Origin: Podarcis muralis
Taxonomy: Eukaryota
Reading direction: 5' to 3'
Assembly: GCF_964188315.1 (NCBI RefSeq)
Contig: NC_135667.1
Location: 15,562,001-15,626,000 of the forward strand
Length of the DNA: 64,000 nt
Shown here: positions 52,101 to 59,900 of the stretch, piece by piece
How positions within the stretch are numbered: position 1 is the first letter of the stretch
Layout of the letters: each line of letters starts with the position of its first letter
Position numbers: made by a program

Positions 52101-53856
52101 TATGTCCACTACTCATCTTCCACAGCGATGTGCACCCACAGGGGCAAGCAGAGTATGCCTAGAGAGCATCACAATGTGGGAGCATCACCATATCCATATG
52201 CAATGCAGAAAACATTCTCTGATGGAAGTACTACTCGCCTGTAAGTTTCATGGCTCCTTTGTGAATCCCAAACTTTCTCTGGTCTTATCTTTCCTGGAAG
52301 CTCCTATAACAAAGAATAAAGGGTCCGAATTGATACCATATTCCTCCTCCTATCTGAAAATAAGAACACCCACTATGACCACATCAAGGATCCCTTCTTG
52401 AGCTCCACTCCACAGCTCCACATTGCTAAAAGCTCTTTATACCTGCTGCATTCTGTATTCATTTTTAGTATAGTAATTAGACCTGTGCTGAATTCTGAAA
52501 TACTGTGTGAACTGCTGATCCATTAAAAAAAACAACTTTAAAAGAAGATATAATCTTCCAAAATATCTCATTATGGTGATTATAGCATGGCTGCAACCCA
52601 AACATCCATTAACATTTCATCCCCAAGTACTGATGAGGGGGAAGAAGGGTACACTGTGGGTTGGCACTTGGTGTCCATCCATACCAGATTCTCCCACTCT
52701 CCTTTCACCCAGAGAATTATTTCTGGAGACAACTGTGGACATGGCAATATTGGAAAGTACTGTACCACAATGCATGCAAATGAAGAAACATTTAAGCAGG
52801 AGGATTGAAATGTAACAAACAGCTGGACCCCCCACAAAATATGAGTGAGATTCCACACTAAACTAGAAACACAATGTGATAAGTGCCCTTTGTCCACTTG
52901 CCATGGTTTATTAGCACATGGAGCCCCCTGTTTTGATGCAGCCAGTACAACCCTTACCTCGCTGGGACACTGGATGCACATGACGCTTTCTCCAGGATCT
53001 TCAGAATGCTCCATTTTCTGGTTCCTCGTTTCCTTTCTGAATAGGAGGGATTCAGACTGCAGCACTGACTGGTCAGAAACCTGGACTTTATTTTTAAACC
53101 AATATGACTGTTGTGAAAATGAAGAAAGGTGCAAAAAATGACCTTGAGGAATAAGAATGACGTGAAGTCAAATCCACCCAGTACTGCAAATAGCAGGATC
53201 CGAACAGAAGCCGGACGTACCATTTCTAAACATTCCAGGAACCGACAACAAGCTTGTTCTCCCCTTTCCAGGATTATACTTAGCAATTTTTTGATTTTCT
53301 CTTTAGAATCTTTCTCCATTTTGAAAACATTCTTGTATTCTTGTAGTGTGATGACAGAGCAAGAGTGTAGGGTGTGCAAAACGAAGTCTAGGTCCTCTTC
53401 AAGAATTTCAATCAACTGTTCTCTTCCCTTGCAGATCATCTCATCACTAAAGAATGCGTATCTTTTCAACGACCTGTGGCAGAAACAGAAGCAGGGGAAG
53501 AACTGGAACCTGGTTAGGTGGCCAACTTGCAGCCAGTGGACCATCGGTAGCTCTCAGCTGCACACCCTGGGGCCCACCAAGACTTGGGGAACCTTGCCTT
53601 CTTTTCTTAGCCTTAAGCTGTGCAATTTCACCATCAATTTCACCTGGTGTGCCAGCAGGTGAAGAGGGAGCTAAAAGCGTACGTGTGAAATGAGCGGAGG
53701 GGAAAGTGGTGTGTGCAAGAGAGAGTGGGAATGAGAATTGTGAAGGTGGGTGTGTCTGTGCACATATCTGAGCAAGTGTGCAGCCCCCAACACACTACTC
53801 ACCTGCACACACAACCCTCAGGGATAAAAAGATTGCCCTGCTGTCCCCTATTCTAG

Positions 53857-53915
<59 letters not shown>

Positions 53916-56900: not shown

Positions 56901-59900
56901 AGCGCCGCAACCCCAGAATCGGCCACAACTGGACCTAATGGTCAGGGGTCCCTTTACCTTTACCTTTAAGCATTGGCAATCCGATTGTTGAAAGCTGCTG
57001 AGAATTGCTGCCATCAGCCAAAAGCTTTCTATAGAAAACAGTGCATGTACTAAAAATATCTCAGCTTGATATTTTTTGTTATTTATTGCTGCACTTTGGG
57101 GCTAGGCTAATCTAGGAGCAGGGAGTCTCAAGCCCTGTGGCCAAATGGGCTCCTCTAGACCCCTCCTTCAAGCCCTTGGAATGCTCCCCAGGCCACACCC
57201 CTCACTGACCCCGCCTGGAAACCCTCCTGGGGTGTCTCTGCCTTCCTGAAATGGGGCCTTGAGCTCCGATCAGGGCTGGCGCACTCATGAGGCAAGGTGA
57301 GGCATGATCCACAGGGGCAGCAGATCCCAATGCAGATCGTTATTCCCCACCTTGTTCCTGATGTTCCTTCTTCCCTGGTGGGGAGCCATTTTTCTTCTTT
57401 CGCCTCAGGCGCTAAACTCTCTTGGGGCAGCCCTAGCTCCGATAATGCTTCTTTCTAGTCTAGATGGAGGGCAGAGGGATGTGTGAAAACACTAGCCCAC
57501 TTTACACAGGTAACAGTGACACCCATCATTCTGCTCCCTTTCACTGCTGGTCTTGCCTTTGCTGGAAAAGTTGCCCCACCCCTGGGCGACTACAGCCATG
57601 GGAAGGAGCTGTGCTGTCAGTACAAACAGAACCCCGAGGTGTCACCACCACCAGCCAGATGGATCCACCCCTCTCCGGAGATCCTTACTTAGCCTGATGA
57701 AAACAAAGAGAGAGCCCACCGGGGGCTTGTAGTCCATCGCCTGCAGCACCAGCGCCGTCACCTCCACGGCATAAGCCTCGCCATAGTACTGGATTAATAG
57801 ATCCCTGAGCTGCCGAGCATCGGCTTCCCTCAGCAACCTTTTGGGGATTCTTCCGACGCCCTCCTTGACCGGGAATCTGAGCAGTTCGCCCTTGAATTTC
57901 CTCCAGTCCTCGTCCCGCAAGTCCAGCAAGGTGCCCAGAAGGAGGAGAGGGGCGCAGTGAATCGCCCAAGGCTGCGGCTCCAGAAAGAGCGAGGGACCCG
58001 CTTTGGGCAGCCGCGTCGCGGGGAAAAGGCTGCCCTCGTCGTCCCCCTTTCTTGGGGGAGCTGTGAAGGAGAGGGCCGGGAGATTGAGGACGATCTTCTT
58101 CGACATCGCGCTCCTTCCCCGCCAGCCCCAGCGCAGCAGAAAACACGGCCACCCAAAGACCCAGATCTGGAGACTCTGCCAAGGGAAGTGGGTGCCAGCT
58201 CGCGGCGCCTGACTCCCCGGGGTAGAGAGGCTTGGCGCGAGGGCAGCAGCGGGAAACCCGCTCCGAGCGCCGCCGGCTCTCTCTCCTCTCCTGGTCTCTT
58301 TCTGTTCCCTTTGGCGAGGAAACTCTCCTTAAAGATCCTTCCCTCCGGCAGCTGCAGGAGACTCGAGGGCGGGGTTTCGCTTCACCTTTCGAGCTCACCT
58401 GCTGCCCAGCCCTGCGCTGGAAGAACTTGGCCCAGAGGTTCCTCGAGGAAGGACTCCGAAGCGCAATTCTCCAAGGGGAAGAGAATTCGCTCTCTCGCTC
58501 TTTCTTTGCGCAGGATCTGAAGCAGGGATGAGCGCCCGGACCGTGGGACAGGAAAACACGTGAGTGTGCGAGAAGAAACTACTCGTCCTTCGCGAATTTA
58601 AAGCAACCCCCCACCCAAAAAGCAATACTGTATTTTGTTAAGGGTGCTGGGACGCGTCTGAGAGGCCTTCTTGGGGGTGGGCTTGAGATGCGTGTCGGCA
58701 GCTTCTAGCGCTTTTGTTGTGCTCTCCAGCGCTAGGTTTCTTTCTCCTTTGGGGGATGTTCTTACTAATTCCCGACCCACAAAGGGCTGGAGGAACTCCT
58801 TAACCGAGTCCCCCGGTAAGTTTTGTGACGCAACAAGTATTATTATTATTTTTTAACATACAAGCATGTGATTGCAACAGGTAAAATCTTCTCTCTAGCC
58901 AGATTCAACAGCCACGCGGCTGCACCTTCTGTGTTACAATAAGTAATTGGCTCAGTTATTCCAGCGATTAATATTCCATTTCTGCACCCACATCCTGTCC
59001 CCTGGCAGGTCTCATACAAGAATTCAAGACCTCTACATCCTCCCTGAAGTGATGTGAGGAGGGGAGAGAGGAGTATCCTCAGCATCCTATAGAGCTGGAG
59101 GGAGTTTTGTAGGCCATGTGGCCTGAGGCAGGAAATCCAGCCCTACAGCATTTTCAGCAGGTGGCTGTCAAGACTCTGCCTGAAGACCTCCAAATGAAGC
59201 AGCTCCTCACCCCAGGAACTGGCTCCATGAAACCATAGGATAAATTCACAAAGTCTCCTGCTGACATTAATCAAAACAAGTCCAGGTATGTATTTTAGGG
59301 CACTGTTTTGTGAAGTATTCTCTGCATTTCCCCCATGCTTTTTGAAACTCTTGTCTGGTGTGATCTCTACATAATTGCCTCTGTTAATCTAGCCAGTCCA
59401 ATATACTCTAACAGTTTGTCTTGCCAGTCCTTTTTTGTCGGTACAGTTTCTTTTTTCCAGTTTTTAGCAATTTGTGGATATTTAAGTTATAATTAGAAAA
59501 ATCTTAATAATTATTCATAAAGGAAACAGCTTATAAGAAGTAAATAAGGAGGCCAGATACAGGATAAAGGAAGTCTTTTATTTGGTTGTTTGTATTGTTG
59601 TATGTTATGCTCATTGTATGTTATGTTCACGTTTAATGAGGGTGGATTTCTGTATTGGGGGGGTGGGAGGTTTATGTTAGGTTGTAAATAAAATTCCAAT
59701 AAAAATTAAAAAGAAAAGAAAAGAAACCATAGGATAAATCACCAGATAAAACTCTTCCTGCAGTTTCATGCAAATGCCAAGCTGCATAAGCGACCAGGTG
59801 ATTTTCTGCAGGAACCCACAAGCCCAAACGCCATGTATGTATGAATTCATGCCAAACCTTTTTCCACCTTGCTGTCAACAAGGAAGAGATCACCGCCCTA

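What the first reader, a model, noticed from the sequence alone, without database searches (positions are those of the whole stretch)
53221..58106. Tandem PYD-PYD followed by a CARD, with a frame switch deciding between two products
Seen: PYD1 splices in frame to PYD2, which has a perfect TACTAAC branch point. Direct splicing of PYD2 to the CARD acceptor (53474) gives G|GT CGT TGA, an immediate stop, unlike gene A where the same junction is in frame. A 73-nt exon (53670-53598) with a GC donor (AAG|GCAAGG) would restore the frame; an ATG at 53544 could also start a CARD-FIIND-FIIND-CARD isoform. Inferred: one locus may yield a PYD-PYD decoy, a PYD-less sensor, or the full eight-module protein.
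Basis: partly seen in the sequence, partly recalled or inferred. Interest (0 to 1): 0.66.

Follow-up and report, generated by a model that had tools for sequence, protein, structure and literature searches.

The report
Missed exon in lizard inflammasome gene

Summary
The window is lizard DNA, not human. The public protein 'uncharacterized protein LOC114582834 isoform X2 [Podarcis muralis]' (P0001, 1119 aa) maps onto its minus strand letter for letter as 20 coding exons, 58106 to 40460.

PYD1 joins PYD2 in frame, TACTAAC sits 19 nt before exon 2, and joining PYD2 directly to the CARD exon reads G|GT CGT TGA.

The frame clash is still an artefact. A canonical 112-nt exon (55445-55334) lies between PYD2 and the CARD exon and moves the phase from 1 to 2. 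Its peptide is present in 6 of 6 related lizard and amphisbaenian proteins.

The proposed 73-nt GC-donor exon is one of 226 stop-free, frame-restoring candidates in that interval. None of the 6 relatives aligned carries its peptide.

The gene is therefore an ordinary single-ORF gene for a CARD8-like protein: PYD-PYD-linker-CARD-FIIND-FIIND-CARD. A side observation is that the first FIIND has lost two of the three autoproteolysis residues (H,K,Y), while the second keeps H,E,S. No transcript data could be consulted, so minor isoforms remain untested.

The parts
57689..58106 (-). Coding exon 1: ATG at 58106, a 55-residue N-terminal extension, then pyrin domain 1. It leaves phase 1.
   Evidence: exact map of P0001; Pfam PYRIN, 54.2 bits, residues 56-127.
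56087..56093 (-). TACTAAC, a candidate branch point of intron 1. Its branch A at 56088 is 19 nt before exon 2.
   Evidence: 2 copies in the window, 3.9 expected. That it acts as a branch point is inferred from position only.
55797..56069 (-). Coding exon 2 (273 nt): pyrin domain 2, entered and left in phase 1.
   Evidence: (Pfam PYRIN, 56 bits).
55334..55445 (-). It encodes the linker peptide between PYD2 and the CARD and moves the phase from 1 to 2. It has an AG acceptor and a GT donor.
   Evidence: exact map; peptide present in 6 of 6 aligned relatives; no second copy in the window at E <= 0.05.
53598..53670 (-). It is arithmetically frame-restoring but has no support.
   Evidence: 1 of 226 candidates; peptide absent from the 6 relatives aligned there; single copy in the window, no similarity to the paralogous genes.
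53542..53544 (-). Intronic ATG in frame with the CARD exon, with a TGA three codons upstream and C at -3.
   Evidence: There is no evidence that it is used.
53221..53473 (-). Coding exon 4 (253 nt): the N-terminal CARD. It enters in phase 2 and leaves in phase 0. The annotated donor cuts the domain at Pfam CARD position 72 of 85.
   Evidence: (Pfam CARD, 44.5 bits, profile positions 2-72 of 85).
53143..53220 (-). The start of intron 4, which stays open in the CARD frame and encodes the last CARD helix that paralogues keep inside their exon. It may mark an alternative downstream donor or recently intronised coding sequence.
   Evidence: with the read-through the CARD match extends to 79 of 85, 45.8 bits; 4 of 6 relatives carry the homologous helix.
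52239..53107 (-). Coding exons 5 (53107-52958) and 6 (52303-52239; GC donor TTACAG|gcgagt): the linker before FIIND1.
49697..51858 (-). Coding exons 7-10 (51858-51635, 51158-50902, 50486-50358, 49826-49697): FIIND1. The cleavage-site position reads F|Y and the triad positions read H,K,Y.
   Evidence: Pfam FIIND, 90 and 34 bits; alignment to human NLRP1 chain positions 1178-1261; identity of the triad.
47817..49582 (-). Coding exons 11-14 (49582-49547, 48975-48869, 48510-48436, 47881-47817): the post-FIIND linker of unit 1 joined to the pre-FIIND linker of unit 2. No CARD or PYD lies between them, and intron 11 is only 571 nt.
43737..45967 (-). Coding exons 15-18 (45967-45744, 45394-45150, 44174-44052, 43878-43737): FIIND2. 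The cleavage site reads F|S and the triad H,E,S is intact.
   Evidence: Pfam FIIND, 79 and 45.5 bits; alignment to human NLRP1; the 1212-residue N-terminal fragment chain 6x6a_B ends at the aligned F.
40460..43622 (-). Coding exons 19 (43622-43572) and 20 (40740-40460, including the stop codon): a linker and the C-terminal CARD.
   Evidence: (Pfam CARD, 72.9 bits, profile positions 2-85 of 85).

Best explanation
This is the 5' part of an ordinary, multi-exon, minus-strand gene of the wall lizard (Podarcis muralis LOC114582834). It belongs to a tandem cluster of CARD8-like FIIND genes.

PYD1 (exon 1) splices to PYD2 (exon 2). PYD2 splices to a conserved 112-nt linker exon (exon 3, 55445-55334), and that exon splices to the CARD exon (exon 4). 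The phases run 0 > 1 > 1 > 2 > 0 and no frame problem exists. The 'frame switch' arose because exon 3 was overlooked.

The product is one 1119-residue protein: PYD-PYD-linker-CARD-FIIND1-FIIND2-CARD.

Inferred mechanism, by analogy with human CARD8 and NLRP1:
- FIIND2 keeps the H/E/S triad and the F|S site, so it should cut itself.
- That would leave a large N-terminal piece (PYD-PYD-CARD-FIIND1-ZU5) held non-covalently to a UPA-CARD effector piece.
- Destruction of the N-terminal piece would free UPA-CARD to recruit a caspase.
- FIIND1 lacks the serine nucleophile and the glutamate, so it should stay uncut. It would then be a structural or regulatory module.
- The N-terminal death-fold domains are most likely bait or regulatory modules.

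Shown here: the exon map, phases, domains, conservation of the linker, and the triad residues. Inferred: self-cleavage, release of the effector, and the role of the N-terminal modules.
For: -: the CARD exon hits P0001 at 100% identity. It was one of 6 proteins with E <= 0.001 among 698 candidates.
- P0001 is reproduced exactly by 20 exons of the window. All 19 acceptors are AG, 18 donors are GT and 1 is GC.
- P0001 carries the exon-3 peptide between PYD2 and the CARD.
- the same linker is present in 6 of 6 aligned proteins. These are P. muralis (two loci), Lacerta agilis, P. lilfordi, Zootoca vivipara and the amphisbaenian Rhineura floridana.
- Pfam matched 8 of 10 exon or ORF translations (PYRIN x2, CARD x2, FIIND x4, two of these also with a UPA-FIIND match below its cut-off). 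The two short UPA exons gave no hit.
- ungapped alignment to human NLRP1 chain positions 1178-1213 puts H,K,Y (FIIND1) and H,E,S (FIIND2) at positions 1186, 1195 and 1213.
- (passages of preprint 10.1101/2020.08.14.246132) names H1186, E1195 and S1213 as the catalytic triad.
- (passages of PMC3210808) reports that S1213A in NLRP1 and S297A in CARD8 abolish cleavage.
- there are 226 alternative frame-restoring candidates, so the 73-nt exon is not special.
Against: - P0001 and all the relatives are computational gene models. I could not see the transcript evidence behind them.
- The look-up of the 8 members of P0001's cluster, which would have shown other isoforms, was unavailable. 'Isoform X2' implies that at least one other annotated isoform exists, and I have not seen it.
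- By a crude consensus count the 73-nt candidate's splice sites are as good as those of exon 3. Its donor matches 8 of 9 positions against 7 of 9, in a count that accepted C at +2.
- Merged gene models do occur in this family. 2 of 8 related models scanned contain two complete FIIND units with death domains between them. The continuity of FIIND1 with FIIND2 is therefore less certain than the PYD-CARD part.
- Two short UniProt models from P. muralis (P0007 and P0008; P0009 has only part of it), at 92-99% identity to PYD2, join a PYD2-like domain directly to a C-terminal CARD. They differ from the window and come from a paralogue.
Confidence: 0.87

Rival explanations
1. Alternative splicing at the PYD2-CARD junction acts as a regulated switch. 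Direct joining, or skipping of exon 3, would give a truncated PYD-PYD decoy. The 73-nt GC-donor exon, used instead of exon 3, would give the full protein. The ATG at 53544 would give a PYD-less sensor.
For: - The arithmetic holds. Both the 112-nt and the 73-nt exons are 1 mod 3, so mutually exclusive use would keep the frame.
- The 73-nt candidate has a near-consensus GC donor and a reasonable pyrimidine tract.
- A GC donor is used elsewhere in the annotated model, at exon 6.
- A paralogous locus is annotated as a PYD-PYD-CARD-only protein (P0003, 379 aa).
Against: - Exon 3 is conserved in 6 of 6 relatives, and none of those 6 carries the peptide of the 73-nt candidate.
- 226 candidates of the same kind exist in the interval.
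- The truncated product would carry a premature stop far upstream of 16 exon junctions, which by established knowledge is a typical target of nonsense-mediated decay.
- The intronic ATG has a weak context and no support.
Confidence: 0.06
2. The two-FIIND protein is a merged gene model. In this view PYD-PYD-CARD-FIIND1 (with no effector CARD) and a short-N-terminus FIIND2-CARD protein of CARD8 type are made from separate transcripts, or the fusion transcript is rare.
For: - Merged neighbours are seen in 2 of 8 related models (P0011, P0012).
- FIIND1 is closest to the FIIND of Lacerta agilis P0002 (93% and 88% in the two exons). FIIND2 is closest to L. agilis P0010 (79% and 94%) and to Zootoca P0006 (90% in the one exon compared). 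In those species the two types sit in different gene models.
- Exons 12 and 13 contain in-frame methionines.
Against: - Only 571 nt separate exon 11 from exon 12.
- No PYD or CARD remnant lies between 49.5 and 46.1 kb. In some searches the only hits there were noise, with E of 0.3 or more.
- The exon 11-12 junction is canonical and in frame.
- Without exon 12 onward, the frame after exon 11 stops within three codons (read), which would leave FIIND1 without any C-terminal domain.
Confidence: 0.22
3. The PYD exons belong to a separate upstream gene, and the CARD-FIIND gene starts downstream of them.
For: - PYD-less family members exist as separate models. Examples are P0016 (FIIND only) and P0018 (FIIND-CARD).
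- More than 2 kb of repeat-rich intron separates exon 3 from exon 4.
Against: - The order PYD-PYD-linker-CARD-FIIND in one protein recurs in P0004, P0005, P0006 and P0014, across three lacertid genera and Rhineura.
- Exons 1-4 have matching phases and canonical splice sites.
- No in-frame start with a good context precedes the CARD exon.
Confidence: 0.07

Closest known systems
Human CARD8 (FIIND-CARD inflammasome sensor)
   Same: - There is no NACHT or LRR region.
- A FIIND (ZU5-UPA) is followed by a C-terminal CARD.
- FIIND2 keeps the F|S site and aligns to CARD8 chain 7jkq_B.
- The cluster neighbour at 28.4-36.1 kb is named 'CARD8-like' by NCBI (P0019).
   Different: - From recall, human CARD8 has a disordered N-terminus. 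Here the N-terminus is PYD-PYD-linker-CARD.
- A second FIIND, without its catalytic residues, is inserted before the active one.
Human and rodent NLRP1
   Same: - It has an N-terminal PYD and a FIIND-CARD C-terminus.
- FIIND2 matches human NLRP1 (6x6c_E) at E = 1e-17 over the cleavage region, with H, E and S conserved.
   Different: No NACHT or LRR domain appears in the Pfam list given for P0001 or in the exon scans. It is therefore not an NLR.
PIDD1 (LRR-ZU5-ZU5-UPA-death domain, two self-cleavage sites)
   Same: It is the other known protein with tandem ZU5-type autoprocessing modules. PMC3210808 (passages) equates NLRP1 S1213 and CARD8 S297 with PIDD S446 and S588.
   Different: PIDD cuts at both sites. 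Here the first module has lost the nucleophile, the duplicated unit is the whole ZU5-UPA, and the effector domain is a CARD. PIDD's domain order is given from recall.
Rhineura floridana LOC133365898 and LOC133365896 (P0004, P0014), and the lacertid paralogues P0005 and P0006
   Same: They show the same family layout: tandem PYDs (2, 4 or 5), the same linker peptide, a CARD, then a FIIND.
   Different: - They have a single FIIND.
- The C-terminal domain is a CARD in Rhineura and a PYD in P. lilfordi and Zootoca.
- A C-terminal PYD in green anole CARD8 is noted in PMC11258412 (passage).
ASC / PYCARD
   Same: It has the PYD and CARD death-fold modules. Two ASC-like PYD first exons lie in the same window. 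An anole Nlrp1-like PYD+FIIND gene lies next to Pycard (PMC13076529, figure legend).
   Different: ASC is a two-domain adaptor without a FIIND.

Membership tests
FIIND-CARD sensors (CARD8 type) | FIIND (ZU5 plus UPA) domain present | tested here: met
   Pfam FIIND scores 90.1 and 33.8 bits (unit 1) and 79.4 and 45.5 bits (unit 2), all above the 25.8-bit cut-off. UPA-FIIND scores 21.9 and 26.8 bits on single exons, just below its 27-bit cut-off.
FIIND-CARD sensors (CARD8 type) | Autoproteolysis triad His/Glu/Ser with Phe before the Ser | tested here: met
   Met for FIIND2 (H,E,S with F|S, triad named). Not met for FIIND1 (H,K,Y with F|Y). Only the residues were tested, not cleavage.
FIIND-CARD sensors (CARD8 type) | C-terminal CARD directly after the UPA | tested here: met
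   Pfam CARD, 72.9 bits, profile positions 2-85 of 85, in the last exon; the stop codon follows it.
FIIND-CARD sensors (CARD8 type) | Self-cleavage, and caspase activation after loss of the N-terminal fragment | not testable with these tools
   Needs protein expression and cell assays.
NLRP1 (NLR family) | NACHT and LRR region between the PYD and the FIIND | tested here: not met
   The Pfam list given for P0001 has only PYRIN, CARD, FIIND and UPA-FIIND. The exon scans gave no NACHT or LRR match.
Pyrin domain (PF02758) | Profile match above the gathering score for both N-terminal exons | tested here: met
   54.2 and 56.0 bits against a cut-off of 22.9.
CARD (PF00619), N-terminal copy | Full-length six-helix domain | tested here: inconclusive
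   the match (44.5 bits) covers profile positions 2-72 of 85 in the annotated exon; read-through into intron 4 extends it to 79 of 85. The last helix is outside the annotated exon.
Regulated frame-switch or poison-exon splicing | Conserved alternative exon, or evidence of alternative use | tested here: not met
   the constitutive-looking exon 3 is conserved in 6 of 6 relatives and none of the 6 carries the peptide of the 73-nt candidate; there are 226 equivalent candidates. Transcript data were not available.

The most novel reading that the evidence does not exclude
The gene would encode a self-contained 'guard plus brake' inflammasome sensor.
- A catalytically dead, uncut FIIND1 would be fused in front of a live FIIND2-CARD.
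- FIIND1 would play in cis the role that a second, full-length FIIND molecule plays in the human NLRP1-DPP9 ternary complex, namely holding the freed UPA-CARD in check.
- The N-terminal PYD-PYD-CARD would act as integrated death-fold bait for pathogen factors that target ASC or caspase-1.
- The arrangement would have arisen by fusion of two neighbouring paralogues.
- The FIIND1 serine-to-tyrosine change is shared with Lacerta agilis (P0002), so the dead module has been kept open since before the two genera split.
Probability: 0.15. Interest if true: 0.6.

Novelty: new variant of a known kind. Interest (0 to 1): 0.3.

Why it matters
As written, the finding (a frame switch choosing between products) does not hold and would not matter. 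It is a lesson in exon finding.

What remains is a publicly annotated but uncharacterised squamate gene. It varies the CARD8/NLRP1 theme in two ways:
- death-fold domains sit in place of the disordered or NLR N-terminus;
- two FIINDs stand in tandem, and only the second keeps the self-cleavage residues.

My full-text searches found no paper on a tandem or duplicated FIIND. 'Tandem FIIND' and 'duplicated FIIND' had 0 occurrences in the 15 listed of 17 papers holding any of the four terms. FIIND with lizard gave 5 papers. CARD8 with squamate gave 1 paper. By title or by the passages I read, none of these describes such a protein.

If the protein is made as annotated, it offers a natural experiment on how an uncleaved FIIND influences a cleaved one.

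Tried and rejected
- Isoform look-up. The request for the 8 members of P0001's cluster did not complete because the database was switched off. Which other isoforms NCBI annotates therefore stays unknown.
- A copy of exon 3 in the window's other genes. None was found at E <= 0.05 or at the DNA level. The paralogues in this window cannot be used to date the exon. The relatives that carry it lie elsewhere in the genome or in other species.
- DNA-level conservation of the 73-nt candidate in other lizards. This could not be done.
- Repeat origin of the 73-nt candidate. The stretch 53480-53850 is single copy in the window, so it is not simply part of an interspersed repeat seen here.
- A base error as the cause of the phase mismatch. 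Rejected, because the window reproduces the public protein exactly.
- 'Gene A' as a model for the junction. Rejected, because its PYD-like and CARD-like exons are degenerate.
- The short UniProt models that join a PYD2-like domain to a CARD (P0007-P0009). They differ from the window (92-99% identity in PYD2) and do not map to it beyond PYD2. They describe a paralogue, not this locus.
- The joined protein. I sent it to no search, fold or complex prediction. The spliced model was examined exon by exon, so no fold of the whole FIIND1-FIIND2 arrangement was attempted.
- Supplementary tables. The per-species gene table of PMC11258412, which includes P. muralis, may name this gene, but supplements were closed.
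Full report
**Origin of the window.** The window holds no N. It is lizard DNA, not human. The translation of the CARD exon (53472-53221, minus strand) finds 'uncharacterized protein LOC114582834 isoform X2 [Podarcis muralis]' (P0001, 1119 aa) at 100% identity. P0001 was one of 6 proteins with E <= 0.001 among 698 candidates. A script that walked P0001 along the minus strand reproduced all 1119 residues and the stop codon with 20 exons between 58106 and 40460. All 19 acceptors are AG, 18 donors are GT and one is GC (exon 6). 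The spliced model was examined exon by exon. I sent the joined protein to no search, fold or complex tool.

- The ATG is at 58106.
- Exon 1 (58106-57689) leaves phase 1. Exon 2 (56069-55797, 273 nt) is entered and left in phase 1, so the two pyrin domains join in frame.
- Pfam gives PYRIN 54.2 and 56.0 bits for the two exons and CARD 44.5 bits for exon 4.
- TACTAAC lies at 56093-56087, with its branch A 19 nt before exon 2. It occurs twice in the window, where 3.9 +/- 2.1 are expected, so only its position is notable.
- The CARD exon begins at 53473 and needs phase 2. Joined directly to exon 2 it reads G|GT CGT TGA.
- The 73-nt stretch 53670-53598 with an AAG|gcaagg donor would restore the frame.
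- The ATG at 53544 is in frame with the CARD.

P0001 carries a 38-residue linker between PYD2 and the CARD. A canonical exon encodes it: 55445-55334, 112 nt, acceptor tctaacag|CAGAGC, donor TAAAGG|gtaatt. This exon takes the phase from 1 to 2, which is exactly what the CARD exon needs. The same linker peptide is present in 6 of 6 aligned relatives. These are a second P. muralis locus, Lacerta agilis, P. lilfordi, Zootoca vivipara and the amphisbaenian Rhineura floridana. The phase mismatch is therefore an artefact of a missed exon, not a property of the gene.

**Is the 73-nt exon more than chance?** It is not. The 2323-nt interval between exon 2 and exon 4 contains 226 stretches of 30-300 nt that have an AG before, a GT or GC after, are stop-free and restore the frame (153 with GT, 73 with GC). 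One hundred mononucleotide shuffles gave 115 +/- 27.

By a crude count of consensus matches the 73-nt candidate ranks first and exon 3 third. That count accepted C at +2, so the GC donor was not penalised. Against it, none of the 6 relatives aligned carries its peptide, and I did not see it when reading the sequences printed. The stretch has no counterpart elsewhere in the window. I could not test its conservation in other lizard genomes.

I take this to be the gene at 13.9-20.6 kb. There a PYD-like exon (donor near 20281) does join a CARD-like exon (acceptor near 19756) in frame. Both exons are degenerate, however. Neither matches Pfam at E <= 0.01. The CARD-like exon is 32% identical to exon 4 and has a gap of about 19 residues. 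That gene has no copy of exon 3.

**Consequence for the proposed products.**
- Skipping exon 3 would place a stop codon in exon 4, upstream of 16 exon junctions. By established knowledge of nonsense-mediated decay such a transcript is expected to be degraded. Any exon whose length is not a multiple of three has this property.
- The intronic ATG has C at -3 and no supporting evidence.
- A PYD-PYD-CARD-only protein is annotated at a paralogous locus (P0003).
- PYD-less relatives exist as separate genes (P0016, P0018).
- Such products are therefore made in this family, but from separate genes and not by a frame switch here.
- I could not see the other annotated isoforms of this locus.

**What the gene is.** The order of modules is PYD, PYD, linker, CARD, FIIND1, FIIND2, CARD. 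There is no NACHT or LRR region, so the gene is CARD8-like rather than an NLR. It lies in a minus-strand cluster with:
- a CARD8-like gene at 28.4-36.1 kb (P0019, PYD-FIIND-CARD);
- the degenerate gene at 13.9-20.6 kb;
- two ASC-like PYD first exons near 11.2 and 2.0 kb.

This fits published notes on the green anole. PMC13076529 (figure legend) reports that an Nlrp1-like PYD+FIIND gene sits beside Pycard. PMC11258412 (passage) reports that anole CARD8 ends in a PYD.

**The two FIINDs differ.** I aligned exon 8 and exon 16 to solved structures. Both align without gaps to human NLRP1 chain positions 1178-1213 (6x6c_E, 1473 residues).
- FIIND1 has H, K and Y at positions 1186, 1195 and 1213. FIIND2 has H, E and S.
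- These three positions are called the catalytic triad in preprint 10.1101/2020.08.14.246132 (passages).
- S1213A in NLRP1 and S297A in CARD8 abolish cleavage, and F296H in CARD8 impairs it (PMC3210808, passages).
- For FIIND2, the 1212-residue N-terminal fragment chain 6x6a_B ends exactly at the aligned phenylalanine.
- The Lacerta agilis orthologue of FIIND1 reads C, G and Y at the same positions. This is my ungapped reading.

The loss of the nucleophile therefore predates the split of the two genera, and the module has remained open since.

**Origin of the tandem FIIND.**
- FIIND1 is closest to the FIIND of L. agilis P0002 (93% and 88% in the two exons).
- FIIND2 is closest to L. agilis P0010 (79% and 94%) and to Zootoca P0006 (90% in the one exon compared). 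In those species these FIINDs sit in other gene models.
- Exons 12-19 repeat exons 5-11 in kind. Only 571 nt separate exon 11 from exon 12, and no PYD or CARD remnant lies between the two units.
- The simplest reading is a fusion of two neighbouring paralogues that lost the first gene's CARD and the second gene's N-terminal exons.

A caution applies. 2 of 8 related database models scanned hold two FIINDs as complete units with death domains between them (P0011, P0012). These look like merged neighbours, so gene-model merging is a live risk in this family. I give the rival that FIIND1 and FIIND2 are not on one transcript about 0.2.

**Likely mechanism (inferred).** By analogy with CARD8 and NLRP1:
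- FIIND2 cuts itself at F|S.
- The UPA-CARD piece stays bound to the N-terminal piece.
- Degradation of the N-terminal piece frees UPA-CARD to assemble with a caspase.
- FIIND1 cannot cut and stays within the N-terminal piece.
- The PYD-PYD-CARD head may serve as bait for pathogen factors or as a homotypic regulator.

None of these steps was tested here.

**A smaller point on the N-terminal CARD.** The annotated donor at 53221 ends the CARD at profile position 72 of 85. The next 26 codons of intron 4 remain open in frame. They encode the helix that 4 of 6 relatives keep in their protein, and reading through extends the match to 79 of 85. An alternative downstream donor, or a recent loss of that helix, is possible.

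**Literature.** In my full-text searches, 'tandem FIIND' and 'duplicated FIIND' had 0 occurrences in the 15 listed of 17 papers holding any of the four terms. FIIND with lizard gave 5 papers. CARD8 with squamate gave 1 paper. By title or by the passages I read, none of these describes such a protein. Supplementary tables were closed. The table of PMC11258412 may list this gene.

**Verdict.** The frame switch is not a real feature. The locus is an ordinary single-frame gene that is already in public annotation as an uncharacterised protein. Its architecture is an undescribed variant of the CARD8/NLRP1 kind and of moderate interest to inflammasome specialists.

Noticed in passing
window 51158-50902 (-) versus 45394-45150 (-): FIIND1 has H,K,Y at the positions of the human NLRP1 triad H1186/E1195/S1213, so it has no nucleophile. 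FIIND2 has H,E,S. The Lacerta agilis orthologue of FIIND1 reads C,G,Y.
   Followed up: yes
window 53220-53143 (-): The start of intron 4 stays open in the CARD frame. It encodes the last CARD helix that paralogues keep in their exon, while the annotated donor truncates the N-terminal CARD at profile position 72 of 85.
   Followed up: partly
window 49582-48869 (-): The two FIIND units are joined through a 571-nt intron with no death domain between them. Their nearest relatives lie in different gene models in Lacerta and Zootoca, which suggests a fusion of two paralogues.
   Followed up: partly
window 28436-36142 (-): The neighbouring gene equals the public model 'caspase recruitment domain-containing protein 8-like isoform X2 [Podarcis muralis]' (P0019). 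Its layout is a long N-terminus, PYD, FIIND (F|S, with H,E,S) and CARD, with no N-terminal CARD.
   Followed up: partly
window 13893-20614 (-): This gene has degenerate PYD-like and CARD-like exons that get no Pfam match. Its FIIND site reads L|S with Q at the glutamate position, and its C-terminal CARD is intact. It may be a decaying paralogue, and none of the 24 fetched proteins maps to it at 97% identity or more.
   Followed up: partly
window 11293-10715 and 2106-1777 (-); repeats 121-876 and 10163-10369: Two ASC-like pyrin first exons that begin with a methionine (Pfam PYRIN, 81-83 bits). Each is followed downstream by GC-rich 39-nt tandem repeats that stay open in several frames. What these genes encode beyond the PYD was not worked out.
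   Followed up: no
window 60493-63413: Direct repeats of at least 300 nt at 99-100% identity (60493-60792 and 63114-63413) flank an integrase-core (rve) ORF at 61195-61629 (-). This looks like a short, truncated LTR retroelement about 2.4 kb upstream of the gene's ATG. It was only described.
   Followed up: partly
window 52239 (-), donor of exon 6: The annotated model uses a GC donor (TTACAG|gcgagt) at exon 6. The paralogous exon 14 has the same exon end with a GT donor (TTACAG|gtgtgt).
   Followed up: no
outside the window (P0007-P0009): Three short UniProt models from P. muralis join a PYD2-like domain (92-99% identical; only part of it in P0009) directly to a C-terminal CARD, an ASC-like layout. 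They differ from the window, so a near-identical paralogous copy of this locus seems to exist elsewhere in the genome.
   Followed up: partly
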